DNA of 64,000 nucleotides, taken from Xylographa opegraphella. Its lineage: Eukaryota. The first letter of the stretch is position 1. Each line of letters starts with the position of its first letter. Shown piece by piece: positions 48,146 to 63,462 of the stretch. The DNA is taken from the NCBI GenBank assembly GCA_022813865.1, contig JALDZX010000004.1, forward strand, positions 496,001-560,000, given 5' to 3'. The translations under genes were made by a program, and so were the position numbers. The notes beneath the pieces are model-generated. The model was not told where the DNA came from, searched no databases, and worked only from the letters and a program-made list of their open reading frames with translations.

Positions 48146-50488
48146 ATGAAGTCTGCTTCCAGACGTGTCCTTCTCAGTGTTTGCAATACTGCCCTACGCT
48201 CCCAACGCCTATCAAAGCCTGCAGTATTATCAAGAATACATGGCTCACCGATTTTGCCGCATACGGCCTACCGTAGCTATGCGAATGGGCAGCCACATCC
48301 ACCGGGCGGTACACATCGCATGAACTTGGGTGGCGAGCCGGAGAAGGCGGCTCTGGAGCAATACGGAGTAGACTTGACGGCAAGAGCCAAAGATGGAAAG
48401 CTAGATCCTGTCATCGGAAGAGATGCAGAGATACATCGGACGATACAGATTCTTTCTCGGCGCACGAAGAACAACCCAGTGCTCATAGGTGCTGCTGGAA
48501 CGGGAAAGACTGCGATTCTGGAAGGTCTTGCACAAAGAATTGTGCGTGGGGATGTACCGGAGAGCATCAAAAACAAACGAGTTATTTCATTGGATCTTGG
48601 ACAGCTGATCGCTGGAGCTAAATTCAGGGGAGACTTTGAAGAACGCCTGAAGGCGGTACTGAAAGAAGTTGAAGATGCTCATGGCGGAGTCATTTTGTTT
48701 GTGGATGAATTGCACACATTACTGGGACTTGGAAAGGCTGAAGGCAGTATTGACGCAAGCAATCTACTCAAACCTGCACTCTCAAGGGGTGAACTACAAT
48801 GCTGTGGTGCAACCACTCTGAATGAGTACCGCCTCATTGAAAAAGATGTTGCTCTTGCGCGAAGGTTTCAACCTATTCAAGTCGGAGAGCCATCCGTTCC
48901 AGACACTATATCGATACTTCGAGGTATCAAGGAAAAGTATGAGGTGCACCACGGAGTACGAATTACCGATGGAGCACTCGTGGCCGCTGCTACTTACAGC
49001 AATCGATATATCACCGATCGCTTTCTACCAGACAAAGCCATCGACTTAGTTGACGAAGCGGCTTCTGCTTTACGACTACAGCAAGAAAGCAAGCCTGATG
49101 CAATACAAGAACTTGATCGACAAATCATGACGCTCCAGATAGAGCTTGAGTCGTTGAGAAAGGAAACAGACGTGGCAAGTAAGGAGAGAAGGGAAAAGCT
49201 GGAGAGCACGCTCAAGTTGAAACAAGAGGACGCTGCTAGACTCACAGAAATATGGGACAAGGAGAGGGCCGAGATAGAAGCTGTCAAAAAGACAAAAGAA
49301 GAACTCGAGAAGGCCCGCATCGAGCTTGATCAAGCCCAACGCGAAGGAAACTTCGGGCGAGCCGGTGAATTGCGGTATGCCGTGATTCCTAAGCTGCAGG
49401 CCAAATTACCTCAAGAAGGAGCCGAAGTCTCCACAACTGGCGCAGATGGTCAGTCCCTTATCCACGATTCAGTCACCGCGGACGACATCGCCAACGTCGT
49501 CTCGAGAAGCACCGGCATCCCCGTTACGAAGCTCATGTCTGGTGAGGTCGAGAAGCTCATCCACATGGAGGACACGCTGCGCCAGTCCATCAAAGGCCAA
49601 GACGAGGCCCTTACCGCTGTGGCCAACGCCGTCCGCATGCAGCGGGCGGGCCTCAGTGGGGAGAACCGTCCCCTCGCCTCCTTCATGTTCCTCGGCCCCA
49701 CTGGCGTCGGCAAGACTGAACTTTGCAAGAGGATGGCCGCTTTTCTGTTCTCTACCGAGGCCGCTGTTGTCCGCTTCGACATGTCCGAGTTCCAGGAGAA
49801 GCACACCATATCGCGACTTATCGGGAGCCCTCCTGGATACGTGGGTCATGAAGATGCAGGACAGCTCACTGAGGCGGTACGCCGGAAACCCTACGCCGTC
49901 CTCTTGTTCGACGAGTTCGAGAAAGCCCACCGCGACATCTCCGCTCTGCTCCTTCAAGTTCTCGACGAGGGCTTCCTGACCGACGCCCAAGGCCACCGAG
50001 TCGACTTCCGCAACACCCTCATTGTACTGACCAGTAACCTCGGGTCCGCAGACATCCTCGCCGGTGCGGAGGCCAACACGGCTCAGACCGAAGCCGCCAT
50101 ATCTCCCGCCACCAAGCAGCGAGTCATGGACGTCGTCACGTCATCTTACCCACCCGAATTCCTCAACCGCCTCGACGAATTCATTATGTTCCAGCGGCTC
50201 TCCCGTGCTGCGCTCCGCGACATTGTGGATATCCGCCTGCAGGAGCTGCAGAAGCGGCTGGACGACCGGCGCATCACTCTGCATGTGGAGGATGACGTCA
50301 AGGACTGGTTATGTGAGCGTGGCTACGATCCGCGGTACGGCGCGCGGCCATTGAATCGGCTGATCGCCAAAGAGGTGGGGAATGGGCTGGCGGACAAAAT
50401 CATTCGTGGGGACATCAAAGGGGGCGAGACGGCAAGGGTGGTGGTCAAGGAGGGGAGGGATGGGCTGGAGGTTAGTGCTGGTACTTGA
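48146..50488 (+). CDS. HSP78: Mitochondrial ClpB-family disaggregase Hsp78
   Basis: Presequence-like N-terminus without a Clp N-domain; [47 protein letters not shown]. Confidence 0.96.
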
Positions 50489-52778: not shown

Positions 52779-54148
52779 ATGGATCCTAATGAAAAATCTA
52801 TACCCGAGGAGCACCACGTCCCAAGGTACCGTACCCCTTGAATCCTCAATGGAACACTTCCTGATAGCTGAAGAACCGGTAAATGGCTCCCGCAAGACCA
52901 CCGCATACACAGGGAGTGGCTCGGCGGAATCATCGATCATGTTGACCAGATCCCGAAAGAATTGCATCCGGTTCTCAAAAAGTTCAAGGACATGATCGAA
53001 GGAAATACGCGTATTTATATCTTATTTTCTTCCATGTTTGAGCAGATCCCAAAGAAAAAGCCCTACTCCAAGAGTCCCACCGGTCTCCCTCAAGTTAGGG
53101 ATTATAAGCACATGCTATCAGTACTGAACCATCTCTTGACCACGGCACCTTCGTGAAACGACAAGTCACACCGTGTCGGTCTCGTCGGTCTCCCATCAAT
53201 GCAATGCTGGACTGGCTAATGGGTACCTCTAGTGGTTTCGCAGCTTTCCTTGATCCTGAAGTCAATGCCATGCTGAAGGAAGTACTCAACGCTTGGGTAG
53301 AGTTCCTTTGCTCTCCAGAGTCAGCACAAGTCCTTGGAAATGACTCCGATGGGTGGTTTGGCGAAACCGGCAAGACGGACCTGACGGCTACCGCTAATAT
53401 TGGAGTAACCTCGTACAAGTTTGAGGACATGTATGTCTGTGAACCTTCAGCTAAGTATTATGGCTTCAAGTCTTGGGATGCTTTCTTTACCCGAGCCTTT
53501 AAAGAAGGCATACGCCCTGTCGCGGGGGCAGATGACCCAAATGTTATCACTAATGTGTGCGAGTCCAAACCTTACAATATTGCATATGGCGTGAAAGCTC
53601 GAGATCATTTTTGGCTGAAAGGCCAACCATACTCTCTCATCGACATGCTGGCACACGATGAGTTGGCGGAGAAATTTGTTGGTGGAACAGTTTACCAAGC
53701 TTTCCTGAATGCTTTAAGCTATCACCGTTGGCATAGTCCCGAAAGCGGCAAGATCGTCAAAGCTTATGTGCAAGACGGTACATACTATTCGGAGCCGCTC
53801 TTCGAGGATTTCACTGAGTCCCATGGGGCCGACAAGGCCAATGAAAGTACGGGACAAGGCTATATCACAGCAACCGCTACACGTGCCATTCTCTTTATTG
53901 AAGCTGACAACCCTGCCATCGGCTTGCTGGCGGTCCTGGCAGTCGGTATGGCAGAGGTTTCCACTTGTGACATCACAGTGAAGGATGGTCAAAATGTCAA
54001 GAAAGGTGATCAGATCGGAATGTTCCACTTTGGAGGATCGACACACTGTCTGCTATTTAGGAAGGGGGTCAAGGTCCAGGCCTTCCCCGAGTCTGGCGGG
54101 GAGCATAATGTACCCGTGCGGAGCAAGCTTGCGATGGTAAAGTCTTGA
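52779..54148 (+). pseudogene. Phosphatidylserine decarboxylase family (PsiD-like) gene with an in-frame TGA at 53154-53156 and a frameshift near 53190; either a pseudogene or rescued by an intron at 53153-53232
   Basis: Intron 52826-52873 gives MDPNEK..PRTGKWLPQDHR; downstream FKSWDAFFTR, LKGQPYSL, ALSYHRWHSP, GMAEVST and the self-cleavage motif FHFGGSTH. Confidence 0.75.
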
Positions 54149-60319: not shown

Positions 60320-61125
60320 ATGCCCAAGGTACCCCTCGATTCACCCCGCCTATCCCTGGAAGTGCAAGATCCCCAATGGCTAACCCGCCCCGCCTTCAGA
60401 TCGTCGAGCTCCTCTTCGACTGCGACAACACGCTCGTCCTGTCCGAAGAACTCGCCTTCGAAGCCTGCGCCGAGCTTGCCAACGAGATCCTCGCCAAATA
60501 TGGCAAATCGGCCCGCTACACCGGCCCGGAGCTGATGCAAGACTTCGTCGGGCAGAACTTCCGCGGCGTGGTCACCGGCATGGAGACCAAGTACGGCTTC
60601 CAGCTGTCGGATGAGGAGCGGGAGGGCTACGTCAAGCAGGAGGAAGACCGGGTGATCAAGACGCTAAAGGCGAAGGCGCAGCCGTGCGTGGGCGCCAACG
60701 AGGAATTGGCGAAGCTGTACGAGAGCAAGAAGTACGGCATGGCAGTCGTGTCGTCGTCGGCGCTGCGCCGCGTCGTGGCGTCGGTGGAGAAGGTCGACCA
60801 GGCGAAGTTCTTCCCCAAGGACCACATCTTCAGCGCCGCGACCTCGCTGCCGAAGCCCACCACCAAGCCCGACCCGGCCATCTACCTGTACGCCTGCGAG
60901 AAGATCGGCGTCAAGCCGAGCGAGTGCATCGCGGTGGAGGACAGCAAGAGCGGCACGCTGAGCGCCGTCCGCGCGGGCATCCACACCATCGCCTACGTCG
61001 GCAGCTACCATGACCCGTCGAAGGCGAAGGAGGTGGCCGACATGCTCGTCAGCAACGGCGCTAAGGTGGTCATGAACCACTGGAGCGAGTTCGAGAAATG
61101 CTTGGCCGAGATCGAGGCCATGTGA
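60320..61125 (+). CDS. HAD-superfamily hydrolase (beta-phosphoglucomutase/CbbY-like); intron 60329-60399
   Basis: Motif I FDCDNTL, motif II VSSS, motif III KPDP, motif IV EDSKSG. Confidence 0.9.
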
Positions 61126-61621
61126 AAAGCATGGCGTCCGGTTATGCGATGCGGATAGACGATCCTTGTTGTCGGAAGCGCCGTCCAGAAGAGGGAAAGA
61201 TACAGGCTTCGCATCAACGCAAATGTTATAGATTGGGAACAGGAAATTATGGAGATGAATTAGGGGGAAGAAAAAGTGTTTAGAATCCCGGGACCGACGT
61301 TTTTCCTTGCTCGATATCGTAAACCCTATTAGACGATCTACACAATAGAAGTCAAGTCATTTGCCGATGAATCCACAATGACCCCTCAAGAGCACCACAG
61401 TCTACTGTCCACATGCTTGTGAAAGGACGCGCTCTACCGCTACTTTACCTCCACAGCTCACCTTCTCCACCAGCGGAAGTGATCCTTTCGCTGTATGAAA
61501 CATCTCTCACCCCATCATACATAAGCACCTCCGACTGTCCGGTTCATTCCCCCCAAAGCCACCGCACAGCAACCCGTTCACCACCACAGCACTCATCCCC
61601 ACCCTTCACCACACCCCTCCC

Positions 61622-61674
61622 NNNNNNNNNNNNNNNNNNNNNNNNNNNNNNNNNNNNNNNNNNNNNNNNNNNNN
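61622..61674. other. Assembly gap (run of N)
   Basis: Ns flanked by C-rich low-complexity sequence. Confidence 0.99.
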
Positions 61675-63462
61675 CACCCCCTCCGCCGCCCCCCCCTCCA
61701 CCAAATCATCCCCCACGTCCCAAACATCCTTATACGCCTCAGGCGCCTCCTCCCACACGAGCGCACGATCCTCACACACGACCCACGTCCCCCCATTCAC
61801 ATCCCTACCTCTACCCTCCCCGTCCCCACCTGCGCCCCCCCCACCGCGCTTATTACCACGCGCATCCATGCGGACGAAATCCCCGCGCAGCAGATCGTCC
61901 GTGCGGCCGGCATATTTCTGCGCCACGACGGCGAGTGCCTTGGCGCGCGAGAGGGCGCGGCCGGCGCCGTGGGCGAGGCTGAGCGCGTTGGTGGCGCCGA
62001 AGGCGTTGGCGGGCGTGAGGAGCGGGTGCAGGATGAGGGTCGGCGTGCCGCGGGAGCCGGGGAGGGGGAGGAGGGCGAGCCCGGTGGGGATCATGTTGGT
62101 GGAAGCGGAAGCGGAGGAGGACGGGGCCAGAGGCGCCGCGATGGGGGCGGCGCCCTTGCGGTGGATGTAGACCTCGCGCGTGTGGTCCGCGGGCGGAGCG
62201 TTGGGGGCCGAGGGCGGCCAGGAGGTGCGCTCGACGCTGTTGTGGCAGAGGTCGACGACCCTGCGGGCCTGGACGGCACGGCGGGCGGCGCGGACGTCCG
62301 CGGTGGGGCAGGGCTTTGGGGCCGCGAGGGCGTCGGTGCGGCCGAGAGCCCAGGCGTCGTGGCCGGGCTCGAGGCAGGCCAGGAAACGCAGGGCGATGAG
62401 GTCCCGGTTACAGGCCGCCCACGCGCACGCGCGGTCGTGCTCGGCGAGGTAGGCACGCGCGTGGGGTTCGGCCGCACGCATGCTGGTGGCGGCGTCGCCG
62501 GTGCCGCTGTGCCGCTTGAGCACGTCGCTGCCGTAGCCGCGGGAGCCGGAGTGGACGAGGAGGACGACGTCGCCGGCGTGCAGCATGCCGGCCTCGCCGC
62601 GGGTGTTGGTGGCTTGCCACGCGCCCGGGAGGACTTCTTCGACGACCTGGATCTCCGCGAAGTGGTTCCCCGCGCCGATGGTGCCGAGGGTGGCGTCCCA
62701 TGCTTCGCCCGCGCTGGCGGTTGGGGGTGGTGGTGGGTCGATGGACGAGGAGGCAGCGGTGTGACTCGGAGACGAATCTTCTTCGTCGCTCAGCCACGCT
62801 TCTCGGTCGAGCTGAGTCCGCCACGCCCCCTCGAGTCCCCGCAGTTTCTGGGCAACCTTGCGGCCCTTGTCGCCTTCGACGTGGGATGCCGAGAGCGTGG
62901 TCTTGTACCAGGCCATGCCGCAGCCGATATCGCCCCCGATCAGCGGCGGGTGGATCCAGCCTTCGGAGACGAAGACGGCGCCGATGGGGAATTTCGTCCC
63001 GGGGTGCAGATCTGGCTGGGCGACGGCGTGGATGATCCCCGGGAGCGTGCGCGCCGTCGTTTCGAGCTGGGTGATGGAGAGAGGGTCGACGTAGGCTTTG
63101 TTGGCCATGATGTAAACTGGGTTACCGAGCGTGAGGGCGTCGAGGTCGGGGCTGATATTTTCGCCGGGGGAAGACTCTTCTTTCTTCGTGCCCACGAAGT
63201 CTTCGCCCGCTGAGATCAGAAGCACCACATCATCCTCCATACATCTCTTCCAATGCGATTCCTCGAGAAGCTCTTGCCCGGTGCTGGCCACAAAAATACG
63301 TGACCCCTTCTTGAGGCGGAGTTTGGACTGCGCAGCCTTCATCACAAGGGAATGACAGGAGCCGGGGTCACTAGGGCTGTAGGACGCAGAGCTGGGGATC
63401 AGGAGCGGACATTTTTGAGACCGATTGCTGTTCAGAGCCAAGGTGACACGTGTAGAAGGCAT
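61675..63462 (-). CDS. rtcB: RtcB-family 3'-phosphate/5'-OH RNA ligase, release factor H-coupled (RtcB2)-like; C-terminus runs into the gap
   Basis: QPDLHPGTKFPIG, GGDIGCGM, LGTIGAGNHFAEIQ, LLVHSGSRGYG, DLCHN, HRKGAAP, LPGSRG, SLAHGAGRALSR and EEAPEAYKD, all in order. Confidence 0.92.

What the first reader, a model, noticed from the sequence alone, without database searches (positions are those of the whole stretch)
61675..63462. Bacterial RtcB2-type RNA ligase in a fungus: candidate stand-alone RNA repair system
Seen: an intronless ORF with all RtcB metal-binding and catalytic motifs intact (DIGC, GNH, HSGSRG, HN, HRKGA, HGAGR). Known: fungi splice tRNA and HAC1 mRNA with Trl1 and are generally regarded as lacking the canonical RtcB. 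The PDLHPG..PIG, GTIG.GNHFAE and PGSRG signature matches the release factor H-coupled RtcB2 subfamily, which in bacteria works with PrfH to repair ribotoxin-nicked rRNA. No PrfH-like ORF is in this window. Inference: a horizontally acquired enzyme that might reseal 2',3'-cyclic-phosphate/5'-OH breaks from fungal ribotoxins or anticodon nucleases. I recall similar ORFs being auto-annotated in other ascomycetes, so the novelty would be in function, not mere presence.
Basis: partly seen in the sequence, partly recalled or inferred. Interest (0 to 1): 0.75.

Follow-up and report, generated by a model that had tools for sequence, protein, structure and literature searches.

The report
Old fungal RtcB2-type RNA repair ligase
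This fungal gene encodes a bacterial-type RNA-joining enzyme with a small ubiquitin-shaped domain in front; it is an old, inherited gene shared by many fungi, some plants and protists, and it probably mends broken ribosomal RNA, but nobody appears to have tested it.

Summary
The ORF (63462 to 61675, minus strand) is real. It is an RtcB ligase with every metal and guanylylation residue intact; about 14 C-terminal residues fall in a 53-N gap. It belongs to the RtcB2 clade. The genome has Trl1, Tpt1 and an RtcA-like cyclase, but no PrfH or archease was found.

It is not a recent transfer or a contaminant. It nests with lichen-fungal orthologues, then other filamentous ascomycetes; chytrid, plant, protist and giant-virus relatives lie deeper. 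A separate bacterial origin for the ascomycete copies is rejected (AU p=0.003), and several orthologues carry introns.

Its best viral fold match is a giant-virus tRNA ligase.

Tian et al. 2022 already reported RtcB2 in fungi and plants and predicted 40S repair. I found no test of function and no mention of the extra domain in the papers searched. This scan noted the same family earlier in a chytrid.

Most likely a PrfH-free rRNA-repair ligase that uses its N-terminal domain for targeting (about 50%).

The parts
61675..63462 (-). Coding sequence of the ligase, 596 codons up to the assembly gap; single copy in the genome
63190..63462 (-). N-terminal beta-grasp (ubiquitin-fold, DCX/KHA/CIDE-N-like) domain, residues 1-91, with conserved basic residues R5, K17, K47, R49, K51, K52, R55
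   Evidence: model pLDDT 85.8; fold matches; conservation
63127..63189 (-). Variable, low-confidence linker (residues 92-112); several fungal orthologues have a spliceosomal intron here
   Evidence: pLDDT under 50 at 101-112
61675..63126 (-). RtcB catalytic domain (residue 113 onward) with eight insertions of 6-32 residues relative to E. coli RtcB2
62998..63015 (-). PDLHPG motif; L152 and P154 are RtcB2-type positions
62920..62931 (-). D178 and C181, manganese ligands (Asp95 and Cys98 of Pyrococcus RtcB)
   Evidence: 120 of 120 orthologues; roles from PMC8051266; alignment to human RTCB
62662..62667 (-). N266 and H267 (Asn202, His203): 5'-OH contact and metal ligand
62539..62553 (-). H304 to R308 (His234 metal ligand, Arg238 RNA contact)
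62242..62244 (-). H407 (His329 metal ligand)
   Evidence: 119 of 120 orthologues
62050..62061 (-). PGSR motif; R471 is in 27 of 27 RtcB2 rows without N-domain and 0 of 58 other RtcB rows
61969..61971 (-). H498, the guanylylated histidine (His404 of Pyrococcus RtcB)
   Evidence: 120 of 120 orthologues
61622..61674 (.). 53-N assembly gap in a G/C-run region, expected to hold the last ~14 codons and the stop

Best explanation
An old, vertically inherited eukaryotic branch of RtcB2. The enzyme binds two Mn2+ ions (D178, C181, H267, H304, H407), takes GMP from GTP onto H498, moves it to an RNA 3'-phosphate (after opening a 2',3'-cyclic phosphate) and joins that end to a 5'-OH. This chemistry is inferred from intact residues and established RtcB mechanism. 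It is not needed for tRNA or HAC1 splicing, which Trl1 and Tpt1 cover. Its likeliest job is resealing nuclease-cut rRNA on cytosolic ribosomes, most plausibly the small-subunit decoding region as in bacteria (inferred from clade membership). It works without PrfH; eukaryotic rescue factors would clear the stalled ribosome, and the basic N-terminal ubiquitin-fold domain would dock the ligase on its RNA or ribosome target (inferred, untested). Shown here: intact active site, clade, age, the extra domain and its fold, and the genome's other RNA-repair genes.
For: Active-site residues invariant in 119-120 of 120 orthologues. 17 of 23 RtcB2-specific positions kept in this protein and 19 of 23 in most N-domain rows. 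Placement with prfH-adjacent bacterial RtcB2 at 99/99. Core dN well below dS, e.g. 0.28 vs 1.69 and 0.04 vs 0.24. Trl1 with all three domains and Tpt1 present. E. coli RtcB2 repairs cut 30S subunits but not tRNA (PMC9304027) and can do so without PrfH (PMC13166195). N-domain present in 110 of the 120 closest homologues and in none of the 74 prokaryotic locus rows at E<1; K47 basic in 111 of 111 rows; domain net positive in 111 of 112. The domain folds from residue 3, leaving no room for a cleavable presequence.
Against: No activity, expression or localisation data. No eukaryotic decoding-centre ribotoxin is reported (PMC9304027). Core identity to E. coli RtcB2 is only 134 of 335 aligned residues with eight insertions, so specificity may have moved. 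Trl1 can already repair ribosomal breaks in vitro. The terminal Lys is unseen in this copy. One close pair of orthologues shows N-domain dN about equal to dS (0.046 vs 0.044 over 91 codons). RtcB's active-site Cys is oxidation-sensitive, and no archease was found.
Confidence: 0.5

Rival explanations
1. A general back-up RNA-break repair ligase (tRNA halves, stress-broken rRNA and other RNAs), working with the RtcA-like cyclase much as E. coli RtcA-RtcB does, with no special link to the decoding centre.
For: The genome has an RtcA-like cyclase with its catalytic His motif besides Rcl1. PrfH, which gives the bacterial system its focus, was not found. A giant-virus contig carries the same architecture.
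Against: RtcB2-specific residues are kept and bacterial RtcB2 ignores tRNA. Trl1 already does general repair. RtcA is on another contig, and co-occurrence across fungi was not tested.
Confidence: 0.27
2. A mitochondrial enzyme that repairs the bacterial-type mitochondrial small-subunit rRNA, with the short RF-1-domain rescue factor standing in for PrfH.
For: The substrate would resemble the bacterial one. A short RF-1-domain protein is in the genome. A repair-coupled role for C12orf65-type factors has been proposed (PMC6514570).
Against: The protein starts directly in a folded domain, with a stop two codons upstream of the ATG and the same start in orthologues, so there is no evident presequence.
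Confidence: 0.07
3. A redundant tRNA-intron or HAC1 splicing ligase alongside Trl1.
For: E. coli RtcB1 can replace yeast TRL1 (PMC10946435).
Against: It is not in the RtcB1 or archaeal/animal clades. Trl1's healing activities remove the ends RtcB needs (10.64898/2026.08.16.745097). Trl1 is intact here.
Confidence: 0.05
4. The family is functional but this copy is truncated or decaying at the gap.
For: The last ~14 residues are unseen and the gap was not bridged. The copy does not lie beside ARF1 as many lichen orthologues do.
Against: 596 open codons, 48 of 48 universal positions kept, a short terminal branch like its sister's (0.07 vs 0.065), and a gap long enough for the missing 45 nt.
Confidence: 0.05
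5. An active guanylyltransferase used for end capping of RNA or DNA rather than ligation.
For: A capping activity is described for one Myxococcus RtcB paralogue (title seen in reference lists). The Pyrococcus 5'-strand contacts Arg190, Gln194 and His242 are not matched by my reading of the offsets.
Against: Asn202 and Arg238 equivalents are invariant, and the nearest tested relative is a ligase.
Confidence: 0.04
6. A recent bacterial transfer into this lineage, or contaminant DNA joined at the gap.
For: No intron; 72% GC at 62001-63000 against about 50% for most of the window; next to a gap.
Against: 72-75% identity to Xylographa proteins against about 30% to bacterial ones. Nested fungal placement, AU p=0.0027. 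The neighbouring HAD gene has higher GC3 (0.93 vs 0.82). Contigs on both sides of the gap have equal depth, 164.8 and 164.6 (that run may be the source of the assembly). The contig continues upstream into long ORFs of fungal type.
Confidence: 0.02

Closest known systems
Bacterial RtcB2 of the rtcB2-prfH operon (E. coli; PMC9304027, PMC13166195; TIGR03073, NF007153)
   Same: Same clade and catalytic residues; 17 of 23 subfamily-specific positions.
   Different: No prfH found in the genome; extra N-terminal ubiquitin-fold domain; eight insertions; below the TIGR03073 cut-off (195.7 vs 271.8); substrate untested.
The '98 eukaryotic RtcB2s, mostly fungi and plants' of Tian et al. 2022 (PMC9304027 Discussion)
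   Same: Almost certainly this family: fungi and plants that also use Trl1, with a predicted 40S repair role.
   Different: The passages I read give no domain architecture, tree or experiment. Their supplement could not be read.
Archaeal and animal RTCB (tRNA-splicing ligase, archease-activated)
   Same: Fold and active site (Foldseek E 2e-22 to Pyrococcus RtcB).
   Different: Distant clade, 21-24% identity; no archease found; tRNA splicing is covered by Trl1.
Beta-grasp interaction domains: DCX, KHA, DCDC1 ubiquitin-like, CIDE-N, PB1
   Same: Fold: Z 10.2 to a CIDE-N domain (rmsd 1.8, 75 aligned), 8.5 to PB1, 8.2 to DCX; faint Pfam DCX/KHA/DCDC1 hits in homologues; the K+ channel KAT1 C-terminal region is the best PDB profile hit (E 0.006).
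   Different: No family cut-off reached; the sequence evidence favours DCX/KHA while the fold score favours CIDE-N; fused to an RNA ligase.
Bodo saltans virus 'tRNA ligase/uridine kinase' (A0A2H4UTQ7, 891 aa)
   Same: Only BFVD match to the N-domain model with E<=0.001 (5.1e-5, 23% identity over 107 columns; next best 1e-2); listed among that virus's tRNA repair genes (PMC5871332).
   Different: Annotated as a tRNA ligase/kinase rather than RtcB. I could not obtain its sequence, so homology of the two domains is unconfirmed.

Membership tests
RtcB family (PF01139) | Profile match above the curated cut-off and RtcB fold | tested here: met
   165.6 bits vs 27; model pLDDT 89, pTM 0.82, Foldseek E 2e-22
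RtcB family (PF01139) | Two-Mn ligands Asp, Cys, His, His, His and the guanylylated His | tested here: met
   D178, C181, H267, H304, H407, H498
RtcB family (PF01139) | Conserved C-terminal Lys | tested here: inconclusive
   Falls in the N gap; present in orthologues; gap not bridged
RtcB family (PF01139) | GTP/Mn2+-dependent ligation of 2',3'-cyclic or 3'-phosphate to 5'-OH | not testable with these tools
   needs purified enzyme
RtcB2 (release factor H-coupled subfamily) | Clade membership with prfH-adjacent bacterial RtcB2 | tested here: met
   99/99; SH 98
RtcB2 (release factor H-coupled subfamily) | Subfamily-specific residues | tested here: met
   17 of 23 positions in this protein
RtcB2 (release factor H-coupled subfamily) | TIGR03073 / NF007153 cut-off | tested here: not met
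   195.7 vs 271.8 and 242.9 vs 407; the complete orthologue P0002 also fails (216.9), while chytrid, Selaginella, Naegleria, Tilletia and giant-virus members pass TIGR03073 (5 of 6 eukaryotic or viral proteins scanned)
RtcB2-PrfH system | A prfH gene, normally adjacent | tested here: not met
   2 matches in the genome, both under the cut-off; one fits RF1 better, the other is a short RF-1-domain protein; assembly may be incomplete
RtcB2-PrfH system | Specific repair of the small-subunit decoding centre | not testable with these tools
   needs ribosome repair assay
Archaeal/animal tRNA-splicing RTCB | Clade membership and archease partner | tested here: not met
   separate clade; no PF01951 match, control rang in 6 of 14 genomes
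Ubiquitin-like (beta-grasp) fold, N-domain | Five-strand, one-helix beta-grasp topology | tested here: met
DCX / KHA / CIDE-N families, N-domain | Family profile above cut-off | tested here: inconclusive
   No Pfam hit for this domain; only sub-cut-off hits in homologues, e.g. 5, 4, 4 and 2 of 22 for Ubiquitin_DCDC1, DCX2_DCDC1, KHA, DCX; Atlas KHA cluster 0.76-0.77, a lead only

The most novel reading that the evidence does not exclude
Many eukaryotes and giant viruses share an unrecognised, PrfH-free ribosome-repair pathway. The basic ubiquitin-fold domain is a portable RNA-repair targeting module, fused independently to two unrelated ligases (RtcB2 here, a tRNA ligase/kinase in Bodo saltans virus), and it steers RtcB2 to a nuclease-cut 18S decoding centre. 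That would imply an undiscovered class of small-subunit ribotoxins acting on fungi, plants and protists.
Probability: 0.2. Interest if true: 0.82.

Novelty: new variant of a known kind. Interest (0 to 1): 0.45.

Why it matters
Reviews describe RtcB as absent from most fungi and land plants (PMC13247085, PMC5029449), yet this intact second ligase is kept beside Trl1 from chytrids to lichens. Tian et al. posed the open question of what damages eukaryotic ribosomes that such an enzyme would repair and what replaces PrfH. The conserved N-terminal domain gives a concrete candidate for the second part and makes it testable by deletion. It also bears on Trl1 as an antifungal target, since filamentous fungi may hold a second ligase. 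This particular gene is an ordinary member of a large family, so the interest lies in the family.

Tried and rejected
Closing the gap: the one run that holds the DNA gave two contigs ending at 61621 and starting at 61725, so the gap stayed open. No RNA holder was listed, so expression is untested. A frame after the gap reads with G, R, K and E at spacing like the orthologues' terminus; I treat it as probable chance in G-rich DNA but cannot exclude a shorter true gap.

Homodimer prediction for the N-domain gave no answer (score 0.00; alignment not used).

Finding the N-domain on other proteins: the word-index search with a 22-sequence profile returned only 8 proteins of 7999 scored, all RtcB fusions. 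A single-sequence search of proteins over 770 aa scored none of 102 candidates. No hit among ORFs of 14 viral loci found with a Trl1 ligase stretch. No second copy in this genome by single sequence, KHA profile (no control rang) or my profile on the window and 8 own loci. All are weak negatives.

The prokaryote scan with the fungal alignment returned mostly archaeal-type RtcB because of its seed patterns; these served as outgroup. A scan of viral contigs with P0224 found nothing. One alignment run timed out.

Monophyly of all N-domain proteins: found by FastTree apart from one row, not recovered by IQ-TREE, not rejected (AU p=0.50). A single origin of the fusion is therefore open, as is the direction of transfer.

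Conserved functional neighbours: none; the recurring neighbour is ARF1.

A basic C-terminal tail replaced by the N-domain: a weak trend only (net charge >=+3 in 13 of 27 vs 7 of 74).

Burroughs and Aravind 2016 (NAR) is not held and may already describe this fusion. PMC10316542 was a false hit on primer names.

Full report
**Observation.** The minus strand carries an open frame from ATG 63462 to 61675, 596 codons, running into 53 N at 61622-61674. It matches Pfam RtcB at E 2.9e-48 and is single-copy in a 24.7-Mb genome. The AlphaFold model (pLDDT 89, pTM 0.82) matches solved RtcB structures. D178, C181, N266, H267, H304 and H498 are identical in 120 of 120 listed homologues and H407 in 119. 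They correspond to the Pyrococcus metal ligands Asp95, Cys98, His203, His234, His329, the 5'-OH contact Asn202 and the guanylylated His404. Roles are from PMC8051266 (passages); the mapping is my reading of the alignments and offsets. Most orthologues end 35 residues after the start of the AYKD motif (91 of 111) and this frame shows 21, so about 14 residues and the stop need 45 nt of a 53-N gap. The one run holding the DNA covers both sides at equal depth (164.8 and 164.6) but does not bridge the gap, and it may be the source of the assembly.

**Subfamily.** The two best NCBIfam models are the RtcB2 ones, though below cut-off. A complete Xylographa orthologue also falls below, while chytrid, Selaginella, Naegleria, Tilletia and giant-virus members pass TIGR03073 (5 of 6 scanned). 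I attribute the shortfall to the eight insertions in the ascomycete form (inference). Of 23 positions conserved in 27 RtcB2 rows without N-domain and rare in 58 other RtcB rows, this protein keeps 17, including L152, P154, G180 and R471. Only 3 of those 27 rows come from prokaryotic loci that I examined; the rest are unnamed and taken as bacterial from clade and length. The best plasmid hits lie directly upstream of prfH. In a 66-row IQ-TREE tree the protein groups with prfH-adjacent RtcB2 at 99/99, with a myxobacterial prfH-linked group as sister at 100/100 (the bootstrap had not fully settled).

**Age.** 4816 of 8000 scored candidates matched, and all 40 of the best 120 that name an organism are ascomycetes, led by Xylographa at 71-75% (the genus-to-group assignment is my knowledge). 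The tree nests the protein with Xylographa (100/99), then Lambiella and Trapelia (100/100), then all Pezizomycotina rows including Pezizomycetes (100/100). Forcing the 12 Pezizomycotina rows to group with the 15 bacterial-type rows is rejected (AU p=0.0027). A profile search of 1.84 billion representatives gave many more N-domain proteins. Of 30 looked up, 15 name an organism, all eukaryotes: three Pezizomycetes, seven chytrids or relatives (one record flagged as possible contamination), Tilletia, Selaginella, Riccia, Naegleria and a bdelloid rotifer; two more come from eukaryote transcript collections and 13 have no organism. A giant-virus contig has the same two-domain gene and no prfH. Whether all N-domain proteins form one clade is open: FastTree supports it apart from one row, IQ-TREE does not recover it, and the AU test does not reject it (p=0.50).

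**Signs of long residence.** In 8 of 8 metagenome loci chosen because the frame breaks in the linker, the unspliced frame stops early and a GT-AG intron restores it. Frame restoration alone is easy by chance; the canonical donors at one place carry the argument. Many other loci are intronless. ARF1 lies just upstream in 14 of 24 loci with long upstream flanks, several of them near-duplicates. The window copy has other neighbours, which points to a rearrangement. High GC is local: GC3 is 0.82 here and 0.93 in the adjacent HAD gene. Core dN is well below dS; for the N-domain dS is mostly saturated, and one close pair gives dN about equal to dS.

**The missed domain.** Residues 1-91 are present in 110 of the 120 closest homologues at 60% mean identity, near the core's 64%, and in no prokaryotic locus row (0 of 74 at E<1). 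They fold as a beta-grasp (pLDDT 86). The best structural matches are CIDE-N (Z 10.2), PB1 (8.5) and DCX (8.2) domains. Sequence hints, all under cut-off, point to DCX, KHA and DCDC1 ubiquitin-like models. Basic residues R5, K17, K47, R49, K51, K52 and R55 are conserved, K47 in 111 of 111 rows. The divergent and giant-virus versions align to it at 98% probability. The only viral structure with E<=0.001 is the Bodo saltans virus tRNA ligase/uridine kinase (E 5e-5, 23% identity), one of that virus's tRNA repair genes (PMC5871332, passages). I could not get its sequence, and searches for other fusions were weak and empty, so a shared RNA-repair module remains a lead. An earlier AI note of this scan (e1-624748) also reports a ubiquitin-like domain at the front of that viral ligase; I did not verify it beyond.

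**Genome context.** Trl1 with ligase, kinase and phosphodiesterase domains, Tpt1, Rcl1 and an RtcA-like cyclase with its His motif are present. No archease and no PrfH were found; the assembly may be incomplete.

**Mechanism.** The chemistry follows from the intact active site and established RtcB mechanism (PMC10946435 and PMC8051266, passages). The substrate is inferred. E. coli RtcB2 repairs decoding-centre cuts and under 2% of cut tRNA (PMC9304027, passages), and it can repair 30S and 70S without PrfH, which only speeds repair of translating ribosomes (PMC13166195, passages). A PrfH-free copy is therefore workable. Sarcin-loop or anticodon repair is less compelling as its purpose: Trl1 reseals restrictocin-cut ribosomes in vitro (10.64898/2026.05.26.727988, passages), and Trl1's healing steps remove RtcB substrates (10.64898/2026.08.16.745097, passages). 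I put ribosome repair with N-domain targeting at 0.5 and general repair with RtcA at 0.27.

**Prior knowledge.** Tian et al. 2022 report 98 eukaryotic RtcB2s, mostly in fungi and plants, and predict 40S repair (supplement unreadable). Other papers describe RtcB as absent from most fungi (PMC5029449, PMC13247085, PMC12699882; passages). Nine full-text searches showed no experimental study of a fungal RtcB2 and no mention of the N-terminal domain, judged from listings and the passages read. The library lacks most subscription papers and Burroughs and Aravind 2016, which may describe it. This scan noted the same family in a chytrid (e1-7219724), seen after my own fold and tree results.

**Verdict.** A real, probably intact gene of a widespread and old eukaryotic RtcB2 variant. 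Presence and a predicted role are published; the fused domain and the function appear unstudied. Interest 0.45.

Noticed in passing
G000:C177:57390-58550 (L324): An RtcA-like RNA 3'-terminal phosphate cyclase with its catalytic His motif, distinct from Rcl1 (L325); a possible partner of the RtcB2 ligase. Co-occurrence across fungi was not tested.
   Followed up: partly
L149:3875 onward (giant-virus MAG contig, 21% GC): A giant-virus gene with the same N-domain plus RtcB2 architecture and no prfH nearby; several AT-rich unnamed homologues (P0241, P0230, P0222, P0224) group with it.
   Followed up: partly
L227-L233, L236, L238, L242, L245, L247, L257, L260: The orthologue lies just downstream of ARF1 in the same orientation in 14 of 24 long loci; database entry P0094 (RtcB fused to Arf) is probably a gene-model merge caused by this. 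The window copy has other neighbours.
   Followed up: yes
window 60379-61125 (+): An intronless HAD-family phosphatase with GC3 0.93 converges on the ligase gene; it is not a neighbour in any of the 40 related loci checked, so probably unrelated.
   Followed up: partly
window 53198-54148 (+): A phosphatidylserine decarboxylase-family ORF (PSDC plus PS_Dcarbxylase).
   Followed up: no
window 48146-50488 (+): A ClpB/Hsp78-like ORF whose GC3 rises from about 0.4 to 0.73 along its length; the ligase shows a similar 5'-to-3' rise.
   Followed up: no
P0138, P0156, P0168, P0191: Longer family members with extra regions (arrestin-N, histone deacetylase, unannotated inserts); some may be gene-model merges.
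   Followed up: no
L103-L114: A myxobacterial RtcB group, sister to RtcB2 proper; 7 of these 12 loci have a PrfH-like ORF nearby, more divergent than the E. coli type.
   Followed up: partly
G000:C13:331912-332079 (L326): One match to the microbial ribonuclease family PF00545; not examined.
   Followed up: no
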